Virus record (IMG/VR): IMGVR_UViG_2778261544_000001
Strand: one strand, 5' to 3'
Length of the DNA stretch: 10,687 nt
From: a virus
Lineage: Duplodnaviria; Heunggongvirae; Uroviricota; Caudoviricetes
Both the position numbers and the translations under genes were made by a program. Below the pieces are notes generated by a model. That model saw only the letters and a list, made by a program, of their open reading frames with translations. It searched no databases and was not told the origin of the DNA. Every line of letters starts with the position of its first letter. The stretch's first letter is position 1. This document shows, piece by piece, positions 2,780 through 10,687 of the stretch.

Positions 2780-5351
2780 ACCGGTAGGCGATCTGGTCGT
2801 TGATTTAAGTCTGGATGCGGCCAGATTTGACGAGCAGATGGCCAGAGTCAGGCGTCATTTTTCCGGTACGGAAAGTGATGCGAAAAAAACAGCGGCAGTC
2901 GTTGAACAGTCGATGAACCGACAGGCGCTGGCTGCACAGAAAGCGGGGATTTCCGTCGGGCAGTATAAAGCCGCCATGCGTATGCTGCCTGCGCAGTTCA
3001 CCGACGTGGCCACACAGCTTGCAGGGGGGCAGAATCCGTGGCTGATCCTGCTGCAACAGGGTGGTCAGGTGAAGGACTCCTTCGGCGGGATGATCCCCAT
3101 GTTCAGGGGGCTTGCCGGCGCGATCACCCTGCCGATGGTTGGTATCACTTCGCTGGCGGTGGCGACCGGTGCGCTGGCGTATGCCTGGTATCAGGGTGAC
3201 TCAACCCTGTCCGATTTCAATAAAACGCTGGTCCTTTCCGGTAATCAGGCGGGACTGACGGCAGATCGTATGTTGGTCCTGTCCAGAACCGGGCAGGCGG
3301 CAGGGCTGACGTTTAACCAGACCAGCGAGTCACTGACGGCGCTGGTGAATGCCGGTGTGCGTGGTGGTGAGCAGTTTGAGGCAATCAGCCAGAGTGTGGC
3401 GCGTTTCTCCTCTGCATCCGGCGTGGAGGTGGACAAGGTCGCTGAAGCCTTCGGGAAGCTGACCACAGACCCGACGTCGGGGCTGACGGCGATGGCGCGC
3501 CAGTTCCATAACGTGACGGCGGAGCAGATTGCGTATGTTGCTCAGTTGCAGCGTTCCGGCGATGAAGCCGGGGCATTGCAGGCGGCGAACGAGGCCGCAA
3601 CGAAAGGGTTTGATGACCAGACCCGTAAACTGAAAGATAACATGGGTACGCTGGAGACCTGGGCAGACAAGACTGCACAGGCATTCAAATCCATGTGGGA
3701 TGCGGTGCTGGATATTGGCCGCCCGGACTCCTCTGCTGATATGCTCGCCAAAGCTGAAAAAGCTTTTGATGAAGCGGATAAAAAATGGCAGTGGTATCAG
3801 AGCCGGAGCCACCGGCGCGGTAAAACGTCAGCATTTCTTGCCAATCTTCGGGGGGCATGGGAGAAGAGAGAGAATGCGCGACTTGGGCTTTCAGCCGCCA
3901 CGTTGCAGGCAGATCTTGAAAAGGCCAGTGAGATGGCAGCAAAAGATCGGGCCGAGTCTGAGGCATCACGGCTGAAATATACCGAAGAGGCGCAGAAGGC
4001 TTACGAACAGCTGCAGACGCCGCTGGAGAAATATACCGCCCGTCAGGAAGAACTGAACAAGGCACTGAAAGACGGGAAAATCCTGCAGGCAGATTACAAC
4101 ACGCTGATGGCAGCGGCGAAAAAGGATTATGAATCGGCGCTGAAAAAGCCGAAACAGTCCGGCGTGAGGGGGGCTGCGGGCGATCGTCAGGAAGACAGTG
4201 CTCATGCTGCCCTGCTGACGCTTCAGGCAGAACTCCGGACGCTGGAGAAGCATGCCGGAGCAAATGAGAAAATCAGCCAGCAGCGCCGGGATTTGTGGAA
4301 GGCGGAGAGTCAGTTCGCGGTACTGGAGGAGGCGGCGCAACGTCGCCAGCTGTCTGCACAGGAGAAATCCCTGCTGGCGCATAAAGATGAGACGCTGGAG
4401 TACAAACGCCAGCTGGCTGCACTTGGCGACAAGGTTACGTATCAGGAGCGCCTGAACGCGCTGGCGCAGCAGGCGGATAAATTCGCACAGCAGCAACGGG
4501 CAAAACGGGCCGCCATTGATGCGAAAAGCCGGGGGCTGACTGGCCGGCAGGCAGAACGGGAAGCCACGGAACAGCGCCTGAAGGAACAGTATGGCGATAA
4601 TCCGCTGGCGCTGAATAACGTCATGTCAGAGCAGAAAAAGACCTGGGCGGCTGAAGACCAGCTTCGCGGGAGCTGGATGGCAGGTCTGAAGTCCGGCTGG
4701 AGTGAGTGGGAAGAGAGCGCCACGGACAGTATGTCGCAGGTAAAAAGTGCAGCCACGCAGACCTTTGATGGTATTGCACAGAATATGGCGGCGATGCTGA
4801 CCGGCAGTGAGCAGAACTGGCGCAGCTTCACCCGTTCCGTGCTGTCCATGATGACAGAAATTCTGCTTAAGCAGGCAATGGTGGGGATTGTCGGGAGTAT
4901 CGGCAGCGCCATTGGCGGGGCTGTTGGTGGCGGCTCATCAGCGTCAGGTGGTGCAGCCATTCAGGCAGCTGCGGCGAAACTCCATTTTGCGACCGGAGGA
5001 TTTACGGGAACCGGTGGCAAATATGAACCTGCCGGGATTGTTCACCGTGGTGAATTTGTCTTCACGAAGGAGGCAACCAGCCGGATTGGCGTGGGGAATC
5101 TTTACCGGCTGATGCGCGGCTATGCCACCGGCGGTTATGTCGGTACACCGGGCAGCATGGCGGACAGTCGGTCGCAGGCGTCCGGGAAGTTTGAGCAGAA
5201 TAACCATGTGGTGATTAACAACGACGGCACGAACGGTCAGATAGGGCCACAGGCGCTGAAGGCGGTTTATGACGTAGCCCGTAAGGCGGCAATGGATGTT
5301 GTGACCGGGCAGATGCGTGATGGTGGTCTGTTCTCCGGAGGTGGACGATGA
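2772..5351 (+). CDS. H: Tail tape measure protein H (tail length determinant)
   Basis: 859-aa ORF with ATG 2772 preceded by AGGAGGAG (2758-2765). MAEPVGDLVVDLSLDAARFDEQMARVRRHFSG... matches lambda gpH. It has a long Ala/Gln/Glu/Lys/Arg-rich helical middle, a Gly-rich hydrophobic segment near the C-terminus (about 4878-5017), and ends ...GGLFSGGGR. TGA at 5349-5351 overlaps the M start. Confidence 0.95.
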   Translation: MAEPVGDLVVDLSLDAARFDEQMARVRRHFSGTESDAKKTAAVVEQSMNRQALAAQKAGISVGQYKAAMRMLPAQFTDVATQLAGGQNPWLILLQQGGQVKDSFGGMIPMFRGLAGAITLPMVGITSLAVATGALAYAWYQGDSTLSDFNKTLVLSGNQAGLTADRMLVLSRTGQAAGLTFNQTSESLTALVNAGVRGGEQFEAISQSVARFSSASGVEVDKVAEAFGKLTTDPTSGLTAMARQFHNVTAEQIAYVAQLQRSGDEAGALQAANEAATKGFDDQTRKLKDNMGTLETWADKTAQAFKSMWDAVLDIGRPDSSADMLAKAEKAFDEADKKWQWYQSRSHRRGKTSAFLANLRGAWEKRENARLGLSAATLQADLEKASEMAAKDRAESEASRLKYTEEAQKAYEQLQTPLEKYTARQEELNKALKDGKILQADYNTLMAAAKKDYESALKKPKQSGVRGAAGDRQEDSAHAALLTLQAELRTLEKHAGANEKISQQRRDLWKAESQFAVLEEAAQRRQLSAQEKSLLAHKDETLEYKRQLAALGDKVTYQERLNALAQQADKFAQQQRAKRAAIDAKSRGLTGRQAEREATEQRLKEQYGDNPLALNNVMSEQKKTWAAEDQLRGSWMAGLKSGWSEWEESATDSMSQVKSAATQTFDGIAQNMAAMLTGSEQNWRSFTRSVLSMMTEILLKQAMVGIVGSIGSAIGGAVGGGSSASGGAAIQAAAAKLHFATGGFTGTGGKYEPAGIVHRGEFVFTKEATSRIGVGNLYRLMRGYATGGYVGTPGSMADSRSQASGKFEQNNHVVINNDGTNGQIGPQALKAVYDVARKAAMDVVTGQMRDGGLFSGGGR

Positions 5352-5677
5352 AAACCTTCCGCTGGAAAGTGAAACCCGGTATGGATGTGGCTTCGGCCCC
5401 TTCTGTAAGAAAGGTGCGCTTTGGTGATGGCTATTCCCAGCGAGCGCCTGCCGGGCTGAATGCCAACCTGAAAACGTACAGCGTGACGCTTTCTGTCCCC
5501 CGTGAGGAGGCCACGGTACTGGAGTCGTTTCTGGAAGAGCACGGGGGCTGGAAAGCCTTTCTGTGGACGCCGCCTTATGAGTGGCGGCAGATAAAGGTGA
5601 CCTGCGCAAAATGGTCGTCGCGGGTCAGTATGCTGCGTGTTGAGTTCAGCGCAGAGTTTGAACAGGTGGTGAACTGA
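5348..5677 (+). CDS. M: Tail tip assembly protein M (minor tail protein)
   Basis: 109-aa ORF (MKTFRWKVKPGMDVAS...EFSAEFEQVVN) matching lambda gpM in sequence and length. ATGA overlap with the H stop; GGAGGTGG lies upstream at 5337-5344. Confidence 0.92.
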   Translation: MKTFRWKVKPGMDVASAPSVRKVRFGDGYSQRAPAGLNANLKTYSVTLSVPREEATVLESFLEEHGGWKAFLWTPPYEWRQIKVTCAKWSSRVSMLRVEFSAEFEQVVN

Positions 5678-6375
5678 TGCAGGATATCCGGCAGGAAACG
5701 CTGAATGAATGCACTCGTGCGGAGCAGTCGGCCAGCGTGGTGCTCTGGGAAATCGATCTGACAGAGGTCGGTGGAGAACGTTATTTTTTCTGTAATGAGC
5801 AGAACGAAAAAGGTGAGCCGGTCACCTGGCAGGGGAGGCAGTATCAGGCGTATCCCATTCAGGGGAGCGGTTTTGAACTGAATGGCAAAGGCACCAGTAC
5901 GCGGCCCACGCTGACGGTTTCTAACCTGTACGGTATGGTCACCGGGATGGCGGAAGATCTGCAGAGTCTGGTCGGCGGAACGGTGGTCCGGCGTAAGGTT
6001 TACGCCCGTTTTCTGGATGCGGTGAACTTCGTCAACGGAAACAGAGACGCCGATCCGGAGCAGGAGGTGATCAGCCGCTGGCGCATCGAGCAGTGCAGCG
6101 AACTGAGCGCGGTCAGTGCCTCTTTTGTACTGTCCACACCGAATGAAACGGATGGCTCTGTTTTTCCGGGGCGTATCATGCTGGCCAACACCTGCACCTG
6201 GACCTATCGCGGCGATGAGTGCGGTTATAGCGGTCCGGCGGTCGCGGATGAATATGACCAGCCGACGTCCGATATCACGAAGGATAAATGCAGCAAATGC
6301 CTGAGCGGCTGTAAGTTTCGCAATAACGTCGGCAACTTTGGCGGCTTCCTTTCCATTAACAAACTTTCGCAGTAA
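5677..6375 (+). CDS. L: Tail tip protein L (minor tail protein with a C-terminal Cys cluster)
   Basis: 232-aa ORF (MQDIRQETLNECTRAEQSASVVLWEIDLTEVGGERYFFCNEQNEKGEP...) matching lambda gpL. The start overlaps the M stop (TGATG at 5675-5679). The C-terminal region carries clustered cysteines. TAA at 6373-6375. Confidence 0.92.
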   Translation: MQDIRQETLNECTRAEQSASVVLWEIDLTEVGGERYFFCNEQNEKGEPVTWQGRQYQAYPIQGSGFELNGKGTSTRPTLTVSNLYGMVTGMAEDLQSLVGGTVVRRKVYARFLDAVNFVNGNRDADPEQEVISRWRIEQCSELSAVSASFVLSTPNETDGSVFPGRIMLANTCTWTYRGDECGYSGPAVADEYDQPTSDITKDKCSKCLSGCKFRNNVGNFGGFLSINKLSQ

Positions 6376-6379
6376 TCCC

Positions 6380-7123
6380 ATGACAGAGACAGAATCAGCG
6401 ATTCTGGCGCACGCCCGGCGATGTGCGCCAGCGGAGTCGTGCGGCTTCGTGGTGAGAGCGCCGGAGGGGGAAAGATATTTTCCCTGCGTGAATATTTCCG
6501 GTGAGCCGGAGGATTATTTCCGGATGGCTCCGGAGGACTGGCTGCAGGCAGAGATGCAGGGTGAGATTGTGACACTGGTCCACAGTCATCCCGGTGGTCT
6601 GCCCTGGCTGAGTGAGGCTGACCGGCGGCTGCAGGTGCAGAGTGATTTGCCGTGGTGGCTGGTCTGCCGGGGGGCGATTCACAAGTTCCGCTGTGTGCCG
6701 CATCTCACCGGGCGTCGCTTTGAGCACGGGGTGACGGACTGTTACACGCTGTTCCGGGATGCTTATCATCTGGCGGGGATTGAGATGCCGGATTTTCATC
6801 GCGGGGATGACTGGTGGCGTAACGGTCAGAATCTCTATCTTGACAATATGGAGGCGACTGGTTTTTACCGTGTCGCACTGACAGAGGCGCAGCCTGGCGA
6901 CGTGCTGCTGTGCTGCTTTGGTTCATCGGTGCCGAATCATGCCGCAATTTACTGCGGCGACGGCGAGCTGCTGCACCATATTCCTGAACAACTGAGTAAA
7001 CGAGAGAGGTATACCGACAAATGGCAGCGACGCACACACTCCCTCTGGCGTCACCGGGAATGGCACGCATCTGCCTTTACGGGGATTTGCAACGATTTGG
7101 CCGCCGCATCGACCTTCGTGTGA
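6380..7123 (+). CDS. K: Tail tip assembly protein K, a two-domain peptidase-like protein (JAB/MPN JAMM domain plus NlpC/P60 domain)
   Basis: 247-aa product from ATG 6380 (MTETESAILAHARRCAPAESCGFVV...), 5 nt after the L stop. It contains a JAMM-type motif H-S-H-x7-S-x2-D (HSHPGGLPWLSEAD, nt 6581-6622) with an upstream E-x2-G (ESCG, Glu at 6434-6436), and a downstream Cys (TDCYTL, 6740-6742) plus His residues typical of NlpC/P60. The start is ambiguous: the ATG at 6524 has a strong SD (GGAGGA at 6508-6513), while 6380 has none. The 3' end overlaps I by 103 nt. Confidence 0.8.
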   Translation: MTETESAILAHARRCAPAESCGFVVRAPEGERYFPCVNISGEPEDYFRMAPEDWLQAEMQGEIVTLVHSHPGGLPWLSEADRRLQVQSDLPWWLVCRGAIHKFRCVPHLTGRRFEHGVTDCYTLFRDAYHLAGIEMPDFHRGDDWWRNGQNLYLDNMEATGFYRVALTEAQPGDVLLCCFGSSVPNHAAIYCGDGELLHHIPEQLSKRERYTDKWQRRTHSLWRHREWHASAFTGICNDLAAASTFV

Positions 7124-7692
7124 AAACGGGGGCTGAAGCCATCCGCGCACTGGCCACACAGCTCCCTGCGTTTCGTCAGAAACTGAGCGACGGCTGGTAT
7201 CAGGTACGGATTGCCGGGCGGGACGTCAGCACGTCCGGATTAACGGCGCAGTTACATGAGACTCTGCCTGATGGCGCTGTGATTCATATTGTTCCCAGAG
7301 TCGCCGGGGCCAAGTCAGGTGGTGTATTCCAGATTGTCCTGGGAGCAGCCGCCATTGCCGGATCATTCTTTACCGCCGGAGCCACCCTTGCAGCATGGGG
7401 GGCAGCCATTGGGGCCGGTGGTATGACCGGCATCCTGTTTTCTCTCGGTGCCAGTATGGTGCTCGGTGGTGTGGCGCAGATGCTGGCACCGAAAGCCAGA
7501 ACTCCCCGTACACAGACAACGGATAACGGTAAGCAGAACACGTATTTCTCCTCACTGGATAACATGGTTGCCCAGGGCAATGTTCTGCCTGTTCTGTACG
7601 GTGAAATGCGCGTGGGGTCACGCGTGGTTTCTCAGGAGATCAGCACGGCAGACGAAGGGGACGGTGGTCAGGTTGTGGTGATTGGTCGCTGA
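7021..7692 (+). CDS. I: Tail tip assembly protein I (N-terminal ubiquitin-like domain ending in Gly-Gly, followed by a Gly/Ala-rich hydrophobic segment)
   Basis: 223-aa ORF (MAATHTLPLASPGMARICLYGDLQRFGRRIDLRVKTGAEAIRALATQLPAFRQKLSDGWYQVRIAGRDV...) matching lambda gpI. GAGAGG lies upstream at 7005-7010. The start is inside the 3' end of K in another frame. TGA at 7690-7692. Confidence 0.9.
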   Translation: MAATHTLPLASPGMARICLYGDLQRFGRRIDLRVKTGAEAIRALATQLPAFRQKLSDGWYQVRIAGRDVSTSGLTAQLHETLPDGAVIHIVPRVAGAKSGGVFQIVLGAAAIAGSFFTAGATLAAWGAAIGAGGMTGILFSLGASMVLGGVAQMLAPKARTPRTQTTDNGKQNTYFSSLDNMVAQGNVLPVLYGEMRVGSRVVSQEISTADEGDGGQVVVIGR

Positions 7693-7710
7693 TGCAAAAT
7701 GTTTTATGTG

Positions 7711-7740
7711 AAACCGCCTGCGGGCGGTTTTGTCATTTAT
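7711..7740 (+). terminator. Stem-loop in the I-J intergenic gap: 8-bp perfect stem (AAACCGCC / GGCGGTTT), 4-nt loop (TGCG), then a T-rich tail TGTCATTT. Candidate partial intrinsic terminator or RNA-stability element.
   Basis: Read directly: 7711-7718 AAACCGCC, loop 7719-7722, 7723-7730 GGCGGTTT (exact reverse complement), followed by TGTCATTTAT. This is the only sizable non-coding gap in the window (7693-7752). Confidence 0.35.
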
Positions 7741-7749
7741 GGAGCGTGA

Positions 7750-10687
<2,938 letters not shown>

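What the first reader, a model, noticed from the sequence alone, without database searches (positions are those of the whole stretch)
6380..7692. K-I pair resembles a ubiquitin-like processing module (JAMM plus NlpC/P60 peptidase next to a ubiquitin-like protein ending in Gly-Gly)
K carries an intact JAMM metallopeptidase signature (E-x2-G at 6434-6445; H-S-H-x7-S-x2-D at 6581-6622). It also has a downstream Cys/His set consistent with an NlpC/P60 cysteine peptidase (Cys at 6740-6742; His in ...VPNHAAIY... and ...LLHHIP...). The adjacent gene I encodes a roughly 100-residue N-terminal segment ending ...VPRVAGAKSGG (Gly-Gly at 7318-7323), followed directly by a Gly/Ala-rich hydrophobic segment. 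Comparative-genomics work has proposed this lambda K/I arrangement as a prokaryotic antecedent of ubiquitin/deubiquitinase systems. Whether K actually cleaves I, or another tail protein, after the Gly-Gly is the open mechanistic question.
Basis: partly seen in the sequence, partly recalled or inferred. Interest (0 to 1): 0.55.

Follow-up and report, generated by a model that had tools for sequence, protein, structure and literature searches.

The report
Lambda tail-tip K peptidase and I proprotein
These are the phage-lambda-type tail-tip genes K (a double peptidase) and I (a ubiquitin-like domain fused to the tail-tip plug). The motifs are real and strongly conserved, but the idea has been in print since 2006, and nobody has yet shown directly that K cuts I.

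Summary
The window is a lambdoid tail region about 95-96% identical to lambda. K (6380-7123, 247 aa) matches Prok-JAB and NlpC/P60. I (7021-7692, 223 aa) matches Lambda_tail_I and differs from lambda gpI by one residue.

One correction: only the second Gly (G101) is invariant (100/100). The first is G, A, S or Q.

The interpretation restates Iyer, Burroughs and Aravind (2006), so the finding is already known. Newer data fit it. Only the C-terminal part of gpI is seen in virions (lambda 134/135-223; T1 from residue 92, which is the second Gly of its own G91-G92). The F-pyocin homologue PA0640 loses its N-domain on maturation.

The protease and the exact cleavage site remain unproven.

Side finding: the lambda reference J02459 carries a 1-nt deletion that truncates the annotated K to 199 aa and hides its JAB domain.

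The parts
6380..7123 (+). Gene K: tail-tip assembly protein, 247 aa, with a JAB/MPN+ domain and an NlpC/P60 domain.
   Evidence: ORF and translation. Pfam. AF2 pLDDT 97.2, pTM 0.91. 1765 phage records carry a homologue.
6389..6673 (+). JAB (JAMM/MPN+) metallopeptidase domain, K residues 4-98. It carries E19 (6434-6436) and H68-S-H70-x7-S78-x2-D81 (6581-6622).
   Evidence: Prok-JAB E=1.6e-13. Foldseek hits to PfJAMM1 5LD9/5LDA, AMSH, CSN5 and Rpn11. Motif residues are kept at 91-97% in 108 representatives and at 69-70 of 70 in prophage loci.
6710..7051 (+). NlpC/P60 (C40) papain-like cysteine peptidase domain, K residues 111-224. It carries C121 (6740-6742), H187 (6938-6940) and H199/H200 (6974-6979).
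   Evidence: NLPC_P60 E=1.4e-12. Foldseek hits to MepS/Spr, LytE and Acd autolysins. C, H and H are kept at 94-96% in the representatives, in 17 of 17 phages (H200 differs in 2 of the 17) and in 69-70 of 70 prophage loci.
7021..7692 (+). Gene I: tail-tip protein, 223 aa. It has an N-terminal ubiquitin-like domain, a junction, a hydrophobic segment and a C-terminal plug.
   Evidence: One residue different from lambda gpI (PDB 8IYK chain I). Pfam Lambda_tail_I. 1733 phage records carry a homologue.
7060..7311 (+). MoaD/ThiS-type beta-grasp (ubiquitin-like) domain of I, residues 14-97.
7306..7344 (+). Conserved junction G96-A-K-S-G100-G101 | V-F-Q-I-V-L-G108, the proposed cleavage site after G101 (7321-7323).
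   Evidence: G101 is invariant in 20 of 20 sequences (the window, two PDB homologues and 17 phage loci) and in 80 of 80 prophage loci. G96 is 80/80, K98 79/80, Q104 76/80 and G108 80/80. Position 100 is G, A, S or Q. The T1 gp34 model starts at residue 92, the second Gly of its GG.
7324..7476 (+). Gly/Ala-rich hydrophobic segment of I, residues 102-152, predicted to be membrane-active.
   Evidence: Hydropathy peaks. Residues 137-152 are noted as hydrophobic in PMC10721106. Transmembrane prediction is noted in PMC12617516.
7420..7689 (+). The part of I seen in virions, residues 134-223. It forms a trimeric plug in the tail-tip lumen and holds the C-terminus of gpH.
   Evidence: PDB 8IYK and 9E7M. 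PMC10721106 and PMC12617516.
7021..7123 (+). K/I overlap of 103 nt. The I frame is -1 relative to the K frame.
   Evidence: The four substitutions relative to lambda are all synonymous in I and non-synonymous in K.

Best explanation
K and I are the lambdoid tail-tip maturation pair.

I is made as a proprotein with three parts:
1. An N-terminal MoaD/ThiS-like beta-grasp domain, about residues 14-95.
2. A conserved linker that ends in an invariant Gly (G101).
3. A hydrophobic, membrane-active segment and the C-terminal domain that forms the trimeric plug inside the tip. The plug holds the C-terminus of the tape measure protein.

K is a cytoplasmic assembly enzyme that is not kept in the virion. 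It has two intact active sites.

The most likely mechanism is as follows. The JAMM site of K binds the beta-grasp domain as deubiquitinases bind ubiquitin. It then cuts the peptide bond after G101. This removes the ubiquitin-like prodomain, which would act as a solubility tag or steric shield for the hydrophobic segment. The fragment 102-223 stays in the tip.

What is shown: domain identities, folds, conservation, co-occurrence of the two genes, absence of the N-domain from virion maps, and loss of the N-domain in a homologous tailocin.

What is inferred: that K is the protease, that the JAMM site rather than the NlpC/P60 site does the cutting, and that the cut falls exactly after G101. The substrate of the NlpC/P60 site is unknown.
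For: Domain identity and folds:
- K has JAB and NlpC/P60 domains by Pfam and by a confident model (pLDDT 97).
- The JAB domain resembles PfJAMM1, which was solved in complex with the ubiquitin-like protein SAMP2 (5LDA).

Conservation:
- The catalytic residues of both sites are under strong selection. They are kept at 91-97% in 108 representatives below 65% identity.
- They are kept in 17 of 17 phages sampled across the whole tblastn ranking, except that H200 differs in two phages.
- They are kept at 69-70 of 70 in prophage K proteins that are only 32-44% identical to the window K.

Gene linkage:
- 17 of 17 phage loci anchored on I carry JAB plus NlpC/P60.
- 70 of 80 genome loci anchored on I carry them within 3 kb.
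- 1765 phage records have K and 1733 have I, with nearly the same organism breakdown.

Junction:
- G101 is invariant in 100 of 100 sequences, within a conserved G-[SA]-K-x-[GAS]-G|hydrophobic-[FL]-Q motif.

Virion data:
- Lambda gpI is visible only from residue 134/135.
- The single gpI peptide found by mass spectrometry (9.87% coverage) can only be the C-terminal tryptic peptide 202-223.
- T1 gp34 is modelled from residue 92, and its GG is at 91-92.
- gpK is absent from virions.

Homologous tailocin:
- In the F-pyocin, the N-region of PA0640 is present in stalled tips and absent from mature particles. The K homologue PA0639 is essential and is not in particles.

Prior proposal: Iyer et al. 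2006.
Against: - No experiment links K to cleavage of I.
- PA0640 expressed alone in E. coli lost its N-region to unknown host proteases. K may therefore not be required for the cut.
- The invisible N-domain of lambda gpI could simply be flexible. One mass-spectrometry peptide is weak evidence.
- In lambda, and in the F-pyocin (visible from residue 127), the visible part starts about 30 residues after the junction. The real N-terminus is therefore unknown.
- The model of I has only medium confidence (pLDDT 60-70 in the N-domain, 48.5 overall).
- Sequence profiles do not reach ThiS/MoaD significantly.
- A second conserved peptidase site in K has no assigned substrate.
Confidence: 0.55

Rival explanations
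1. The prodomain of I is removed, or merely disordered, without any help from K. Host proteases or instability do the trimming. The two peptidase sites of K act on another tail protein. The obvious candidate is the tape measure gpH, whose cleavage to gpH* plus gpHC in a Gly-rich region has no known protease.
For: PA0640 expressed alone in E. coli loses its N-region. PMC12617516 states that the gpH cleavage site and its protease are unknown. The window's H has a Gly-rich stretch ...GGAVGGGSSASGGAAIQAAAAK... at residues 715-735.
Against: The near one-to-one linkage of the JAB domain with an I that carries a ubiquitin-like domain, and the invariant Gly at the junction, are better explained if I is the JAB substrate. 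From general knowledge, not checked here, gpH cleavage is reported late in assembly. At that stage the segment lies inside the tube and K is not part of the structure.
Confidence: 0.2
2. The JAB domain of K is an anti-defence deubiquitinase. It strips ubiquitin-like proteins that bacterial Bil-type systems attach to the central tail fibre. It is not a processing enzyme for I.
For: This was speculated by Hor et al., bioRxiv 10.1101/2023.09.04.556158. Bil targets the gpJ-type central tail fibre of phages with this tail type.
Against: The K homologue is essential for tip assembly in a tailocin, where no counter-defence role is apparent. From general knowledge, lambda K amber mutants fail in K-12, which lacks Bil. 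The JAB domain co-occurs with the phage's own ubiquitin-like domain in essentially all loci. A counter-defence gene would be expected to be patchy, but this one is universal in this tail type.
Confidence: 0.07
3. The NlpC/P60 domain of K is a peptidoglycan endopeptidase that helps the tail cross the cell wall, and the JAB domain is accessory.
For: The closest structural neighbours of the domain are D,L-endopeptidases: MepS/Spr, LytE and Acd autolysins. From general knowledge, some related tail tips such as RcGTA carry an NlpC/P60 peptidase in the particle.
Against: gpK and PA0639 are not detected in particles by mass spectrometry or cryo-EM. The K sequence was not analysed for export signals here.
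Confidence: 0.08
4. K is a non-catalytic chaperone whose peptidase motifs are relics.
For: No activity has ever been shown for K.
Against: All nine catalytic residues tracked in all three data sets are kept in relatives only 32-44% identical to the window K, while the mean column identity of the 99-sequence K alignment (A2) is 27%.
Confidence: 0.03

Closest known systems
Phage lambda gpK / gpI (TAPK / TAPI of Iyer, Burroughs and Aravind 2006, PMC1779556)
   Same: These are the same genes. The I protein differs from lambda gpI by one residue, and the region is about 96% identical in DNA. The architecture and the proposed mechanism are identical.
   Different: The window has an intact 247-aa K ORF. 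[quoted passage not shown]
F-type pyocin PA0639 / PA0640 (bioRxiv 10.64898/2026.02.24.707460; PDB 25VF)
   Same: A K-like assembly factor that is absent from particles, and an I-like plug protein visible only from residue 127. The N-region is shown by mass spectrometry to be lost on maturation. The junction ...GSKQSG|LFQTVLGAA aligns with the window's GAKSGG|VFQIVLGAA.
   Different: It is a tailocin, not a phage. It has S-G rather than G-G. The protease is not identified there either.
JAMM peptidase plus ThiS/MoaD-type ubiquitin-like pairs (PfJAMM1-SAMP2, PDB 5LDA; from general knowledge also HvJAMM1-SAMP, Mec+-CysO and QbsD-QbsE)
   Same: A JAMM E...HxH...S..D site and a MoaD-like beta-grasp that ends in Gly. 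The structural neighbours of K and I are exactly these proteins.
   Different: In those pairs cleavage exposes a C-terminal Gly for E1-dependent sulfur transfer or conjugation. Here there is no E1 or E2. The functional product is probably the part downstream of the Gly. K also carries an NlpC/P60 domain.
Bacterial ubiquitin-like defence systems (Bil; CBASS Cap2/Cap3)
   Same: A JAB-type deubiquitinase working with a ubiquitin-like protein. Bil acts on the same tail-tip assembly pathway.
   Different: Those systems are host-encoded, have E1 and E2 enzymes, and conjugate to lysines. K/I is phage-encoded and has no conjugation machinery.
T5 pb3 plug domain
   Same: A trimeric plug closes the tip lumen in the same position as gpI (PMC10721106).
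   Different: In T5 the plug is an insertion in the hub protein. There is no ubiquitin-like prodomain and no K-like peptidase.

Membership tests
JAMM/MPN+ (Prok-JAB, PF14464) metallopeptidases | The motif E-x(n)-H-[ST]-H-x7-S-x2-D. | tested here: met
   E19 and H68-S-H70-x7-S78-x2-D81 are present and conserved in homologues.
JAMM/MPN+ (Prok-JAB, PF14464) metallopeptidases | A profile match above the curated threshold, and an MPN fold. | tested here: met
   51 bits against a cut-off of 25. Foldseek hits to PfJAMM1, AMSH, CSN5 and Rpn11 with a pLDDT-97 model.
JAMM/MPN+ (Prok-JAB, PF14464) metallopeptidases | Zn-dependent (iso)peptidase activity after the C-terminal Gly of a ubiquitin-like protein. 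| not testable with these tools
   This needs biochemistry.
NlpC/P60 (C40, PF00877) cysteine peptidases | A Cys-His-polar catalytic triad in the canonical order. | tested here: met
   C121, H187 and H199 (plus H200) are present. They are 94-96% conserved in the representatives, kept in 17 of 17 phages except H200 in two, and kept at 69-70 of 70 in prophage loci.
NlpC/P60 (C40, PF00877) cysteine peptidases | A profile match above threshold, and a papain-like fold. | tested here: met
   47.9 bits against a cut-off of 23. Foldseek hits to MepS, LytE and Acd33800.
ThiS/MoaD-type ubiquitin-like beta-grasp | A beta-grasp fold. | tested here: met
ThiS/MoaD-type ubiquitin-like beta-grasp | Significant sequence-profile similarity to ThiS or MoaD. 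| tested here: inconclusive
   A profile of 18 diverse N-domains hits only I homologues in the PDB; the MoaD-related protein 1v8c scores E=1.3. Pfam ThiS matches 1 of 18 members at E=0.02. Iyer et al. reached it with iterated PSI-BLAST.
ThiS/MoaD-type ubiquitin-like beta-grasp | A conserved Gly (classically Gly-Gly) at the end of the domain. | tested here: met
   The terminal Gly (G101) is invariant in 100 of 100 sequences. The penultimate position is G, A, S or Q, so a strict di-Gly is not conserved.
Ubiquitin-like conjugation system (ubiquitin-like protein + E1 + E2) | E1-like adenylating and E2-like enzymes in the module, and a free C-terminal Gly. | tested here: not met
   The gene order in the window is M-L-K-I-J, and all are tail genes. 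The ubiquitin-like domain is internal and is followed by 122 residues. No E1 or E2 was seen in any of the 17 annotated phage loci.
Lambda_tail_I (PF06805) / lambda gpI | A profile match and near-identity to gpI. | tested here: met
   E=1.1e-28. 222 of 223 residues are identical to PDB 8IYK chain I.

The most novel reading that the evidence does not exclude
K is a dual-site maturation protease that runs a proteolytic checkpoint in tail-tip assembly. Its JAMM site removes the ubiquitin-like prodomain of I after G101, and only once I sits in the J-L-I tip. Its NlpC/P60 site performs a second, so far orphan cleavage. The candidate is the Gly-rich C-terminal region of the tape measure gpH, giving gpH* plus gpHC, for which no protease is known. 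That would make K the first phage-encoded deubiquitinase-like enzyme with a defined structural substrate, and it would solve the decades-old question of how gpH is processed.
Probability: 0.1. Interest if true: 0.7.

Novelty: already known. Interest (0 to 1): 0.3.

Why it matters
This is a minimal viral pairing of a deubiquitinase-type peptidase with a ubiquitin-like domain, and it has no conjugation machinery. It is present in about 3.4-3.5% of sequenced phage genomes (1733 records for I and 1765 for K, out of 50,697).

If K does cut I after the invariant Gly, three things follow:
- It would explain why only the C-terminal third of gpI is seen in every tail-tip structure.
- It would give the 'proteolytic checkpoint' described for F-pyocins an enzyme.
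- It would provide an experimentally easy model for how JAMM enzymes recognise MoaD-like beta-grasp domains.

Tried and rejected
- The search for related loci with the 99-sequence K alignment found no conserved stretch. With a 12-sequence alignment it returned only 92-99% identical IMG/VR loci, which were useless for diversity. They were later reused to check the lambda indel.
- AF2 of full-length I from a shallow alignment gave pLDDT 48.5. Only residues 13-93 are interpretable, and nothing can be said about the linker or the C-terminal part from the model.
- Sequence-profile searches of the I N-domain against the PDB and Pfam did not reach ThiS/MoaD significantly.
- I looked for K variants with only an NlpC/P60 domain, as reported by Iyer et al., to test whether loss of the JAB domain goes with loss of the ubiquitin-like domain. 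At tblastn sensitivity, 1724 of 1765 phage hits cover both domains, and none of the listed rows was NlpC-only. That reciprocal test could not be done.
- I considered a programmed -1 frameshift that would fuse K to I, because I is in the -1 frame and K-I fusion proteins exist in databases. By eye there is no X-XXY-YYZ slippery heptamer in 7021-7123. The listed fusions stand for only a few sequences: P0017 (2 member sequences), P0031 and P0105 (1 each). They are most likely sequencing errors or decayed prophages. This was rejected and not tested further.
- Resemblance between the I junction (KSGGVFQ) and the Gly-rich region of gpH (ASGGAAIQ) is too weak and low in complexity to count as evidence.
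- The simple terminator scan did not flag the hairpin between I and J.
Full report
**What the window is.** The 10.7-kb window is a lambdoid tail-gene block (Z, U, V, G/T, H, M, L, K, I and the 5' part of J). It is about 95% identical to lambda-like phages over its full length. It is 96-97% identical over 5300-7800. Window coordinates equal lambda J02459 coordinates minus 7752, apart from two compensating 1-nt indels. The finding spans gene K (6380-7123, 247 aa) and gene I (7021-7692, 223 aa). The two genes overlap by 103 nt in different frames.

**Checking the observation.**
- E19-x2-G22 at 6434-6445.
- H68-S-H70-x7-S78-x2-D81 at 6581-6622.
- C121 at 6740-6742.
- H187 in VPNHAAIY, and H199/H200 in LLHHIP.
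- G100-G101 of I at 7318-7323, followed by a Gly/Ala-rich hydrophobic stretch.

These are family-level matches, not chance. Pfam gives Prok-JAB (E=1.6e-13, K residues 4-98), NLPC_P60 (E=1.4e-12, residues 111-224) and Lambda_tail_I (E=1.1e-28, I residues 14-97). All are above the curated cut-offs. The I protein differs from lambda gpI, as deposited in PDB 8IYK, at one residue.

**Folds.**
- *K.* An AF2 model from a 99-sequence alignment is very confident (pLDDT 97.2, pTM 0.91). Its PDB neighbours fall into two groups. The first is NlpC/P60 D,L-endopeptidases: MepS/Spr, LytE and C. difficile autolysins. The second is JAMM enzymes: PfJAMM1 alone and with SAMP2 (5LD9, 5LDA), AMSH, CSN5 and Rpn11.
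- *Sequence level.* The link to ThiS/MoaD is not significant with simple profiles. The assignment of a ubiquitin-like domain therefore rests on fold, and on the iterated searches of Iyer et al.

**Conservation and linkage.** An exhaustive search of 1.84 billion cluster representatives found 2751 K relatives.
- In 108 near-full-length representatives below 65% identity, the catalytic residues are the most conserved columns. E19 is kept at 95%, H68 at 97%, H70 at 96%, S78 at 91% (plus 7% Thr) and D81 at 97%. C121 is kept at 95%, H187 at 96%, H199 at 96% and H200 at 94%.
- tblastn finds I in 1733 and K in 1765 of 50,697 phage genomes, with almost identical organism breakdowns. In 1724 of the K hits both domains are covered.
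- I sampled 17 phage loci evenly down the I ranking. The hosts were Yersinia, Ralstonia, Burkholderia, T1-like, Dhillonvirus, Webervirus, Stenotrophomonas, Synechococcus, Pseudomonas, Vibrio, Caulobacter, Dickeya, Acinetobacter, Serratia, Pectobacterium, Rtpvirus and mEp213. All 17 have JAB and NlpC/P60 upstream of an I gene with ubiquitin-like and C-terminal parts. All catalytic residues are intact in them, except that H200 differs in two phages.
- In 80 loci anchored on I from one-genome-per-species gamma- and beta-proteobacteria, 70 have a single JAB-NlpC/P60 ORF within 3 kb. The other ten are a contig end, loci with unrelated genes inserted between K and I, or remnants. The 70 K proteins are only 32-44% identical to the window K, yet keep each catalytic residue in 69-70 cases.

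**The junction.** The conserved feature is not strictly Gly-Gly.
- Across 20 sequences (the window, two PDB homologues and 17 phage loci) and 80 prophage sequences, the second Gly (G101) is invariant.
- Position 100 is G, A, S or Q.
- The surrounding motif is I-x-I-x-P-x3-G96-[SA]-K98-x-[GAS]-G101 | hydrophobic-[FL]-Q104-x-[IV]-hydrophobic-G108. In the 80 prophages G96, P92 and G108 are invariant, and K98 and Q104 nearly so.
- Both sides of the putative scissile bond are thus constrained.

**What is already known.** The JAMM motif in lambda K was listed in 2003-2004, with its function described as unknown (PMC300881). Iyer, Burroughs and Aravind (2006) described the ubiquitin-like domain of I and its conserved C-terminal Gly. 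They also described the JAB plus NlpC/P60 architecture of K and the conserved K-I-J neighbourhood in lambdoid and T1-like phages. They proposed explicitly that the JAB domain releases the ubiquitin-like domain by cutting at the C-terminal-most Gly (PMC1779556). The finding is therefore not new.

**What newer data add.** At the time of Iyer et al., gpI was thought not to be in the tail. Cryo-EM now shows a gpI trimer as a plug in the tip lumen, holding the C-terminal helix of gpH.
- Only residues 134/135-223 are seen. gpK is absent from virions by mass spectrometry and cryo-EM (PMC10721106, PMC12617516).
- The virion mass spectrometry lists one gpI peptide with 9.87% coverage. The only tryptic peptide of that size is the C-terminal 202-223. 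Four well-sized N-domain peptides were not reported. This is weak evidence but consistent.
- In T1 the homologue gp34 was modelled from residue 92. Its GG is at residues 91-92. The ordered chain therefore begins at the junction.
- In the F-type pyocin, PA0640 is visible from residue 127. Its N-region is found by mass spectrometry in assembly-stalled tips but not in mature particles. The K homologue PA0639 is essential for tip formation and absent from particles. The authors state that the cleavage mechanism is unknown (bioRxiv 10.64898/2026.02.24.707460).
- Against a strict need for K, PA0640 expressed alone in E. coli also lost its N-region.

**Mechanism.** The best reading is that I is a proprotein. 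Its MoaD-like domain is a removable N-terminal module. Plausibly it keeps the very hydrophobic 102-152 segment soluble, or blocks premature docking. K would be the assembly protease whose JAMM site cuts after G101. I put this at about 0.55. The weak points are listed under the best explanation above. The NlpC/P60 site is equally conserved and has no assigned substrate.

Rivals considered:
- K-independent trimming of I, with K acting on another protein such as gpH (about 0.2).
- An anti-Bil deubiquitinase role, as speculated by Hor et al.. The universal presence of K, its linkage to I, and the need for K homologues in a tailocin argue against it.
- A cell-wall hydrolase role for the NlpC/P60 domain. 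The absence of K from particles argues against it.
- A relic pseudo-enzyme. The conservation argues against it.

**Side finding: the lambda reference.** The lambda reference J02459 annotates K as 199 aa, starting at the codon equivalent to Met49 of the window's K. Aligned with the window and phage 434, the reference lacks one base in codon 45 (GGAGGC-TAT). Two independently sequenced lambda derivatives, DE3 (EU078592) and lambda KT232076, read GGAGGCGTAT. All 76 IMG/VR relatives that matched the test pattern are in frame.

The 199-aa K is therefore most likely an artefact of the 1982 sequence or of that stock. It removes E19 and half of the JAB domain. The DE3 record copies it. A 2020 review that used the 199-aa protein found only 'a peptidase domain'. 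The 434 record already uses the 247-aa start.

**Verdict.** It is already published and is textbook-adjacent for lambda specialists. Its value is that a 20-year-old hypothesis is now sharply testable, with a defined site (after G101), defined mutants and supporting structural data.

Noticed in passing
window 6509-6517 (K codons 44-46); L001 (lambda J02459), L100 (DE3), L101 (lambda KT232076), L099 (phage 434): The lambda reference sequence has a 1-nt deletion here (GGAGGC-TAT, against GGAGGCGTAT in DE3 and in another lambda record; the window reads GGAGGATTAT). This breaks the long K ORF and explains the classical 'K;199 aa' annotation, which lacks the JAMM Glu and half of the JAB domain. All 76 related IMG/VR loci that matched the test pattern are in frame.
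   Followed up: yes
window 6509-6526: A GGAGG Shine-Dalgarno-like sequence lies 10 nt upstream of the internal Met49 ATG (6524). A JAB-truncated 199-aa K product (23.0 kDa, against 28.3 kDa for the full protein) could in principle also be made by internal initiation.
   Followed up: no
window 7021-7123: In the 103-nt K/I overlap, the four differences from lambda are all synonymous in the I frame and non-synonymous in the K frame. The first beta-hairpin of I seems more constrained than the C-terminal helix of K. In other phages the overlap is only 4-49 nt.
   Followed up: partly
window 7711-7730: A hairpin AAACCGCC-TGCG-GGCGGTTT followed by TGTCATTT lies between I and J. The equivalent site is annotated as a terminator in phage 434 (OL657226). 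The simple terminator scan did not flag it.
   Followed up: no
window 4914-4964 (H residues 715-731): The tape measure H has a Gly-rich stretch GGAVGGGSSASGGAAIQ after a hydrophobic Gly-zipper-like segment. This is the region where gpH is cut to gpH* plus gpHC by an unknown protease. It loosely resembles the I junction (KSGGVFQ).
   Followed up: no
L090 1751-3769 (Synechococcus phage S-H1); L093 1605-2496 (Caulobacter phage Seuss): The K domains are split into separate ORFs here. In S-H1 the order is JAB then NlpC/P60, and the I homologue is fused into a 434-aa protein. In Seuss the order is NlpC/P60 first, then a small JAB ORF. The catalytic motifs are intact in both phages.
   Followed up: partly
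L091, L092, L147, L160, L163, L165 (Pseudomonas and Vibrio phages and prophages), about 500-2400 nt upstream of I: Unrelated small genes are inserted between K and I. They include ORFs with lipoprotein-like signal sequences directly upstream of I in several Pseudomonas prophages, and reverse-strand genes in Vibrio pVa-1. They look like moron insertions in an otherwise tightly packed tail operon.
   Followed up: no
P0017, P0031, P0105 (K-I fusions); P0147 (JAB-I fusion); phrog_28576, phrog_35166; phrog_31 (I-like region inside J): Databases hold fused K-I, JAB-I and I-J proteins. The listed E. coli examples are singletons or near-singletons (1-2 member sequences) and look like frameshift errors or deletions in decayed prophages. 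The I-J fusions reported by Iyer et al. may be genuine.
   Followed up: partly
L145 1110-3576 (Photorhabdus khanii): A P4-type integrase-like ORF abuts an N-terminally truncated I homologue. This is probably a prophage remnant boundary inside the tail module.
   Followed up: no
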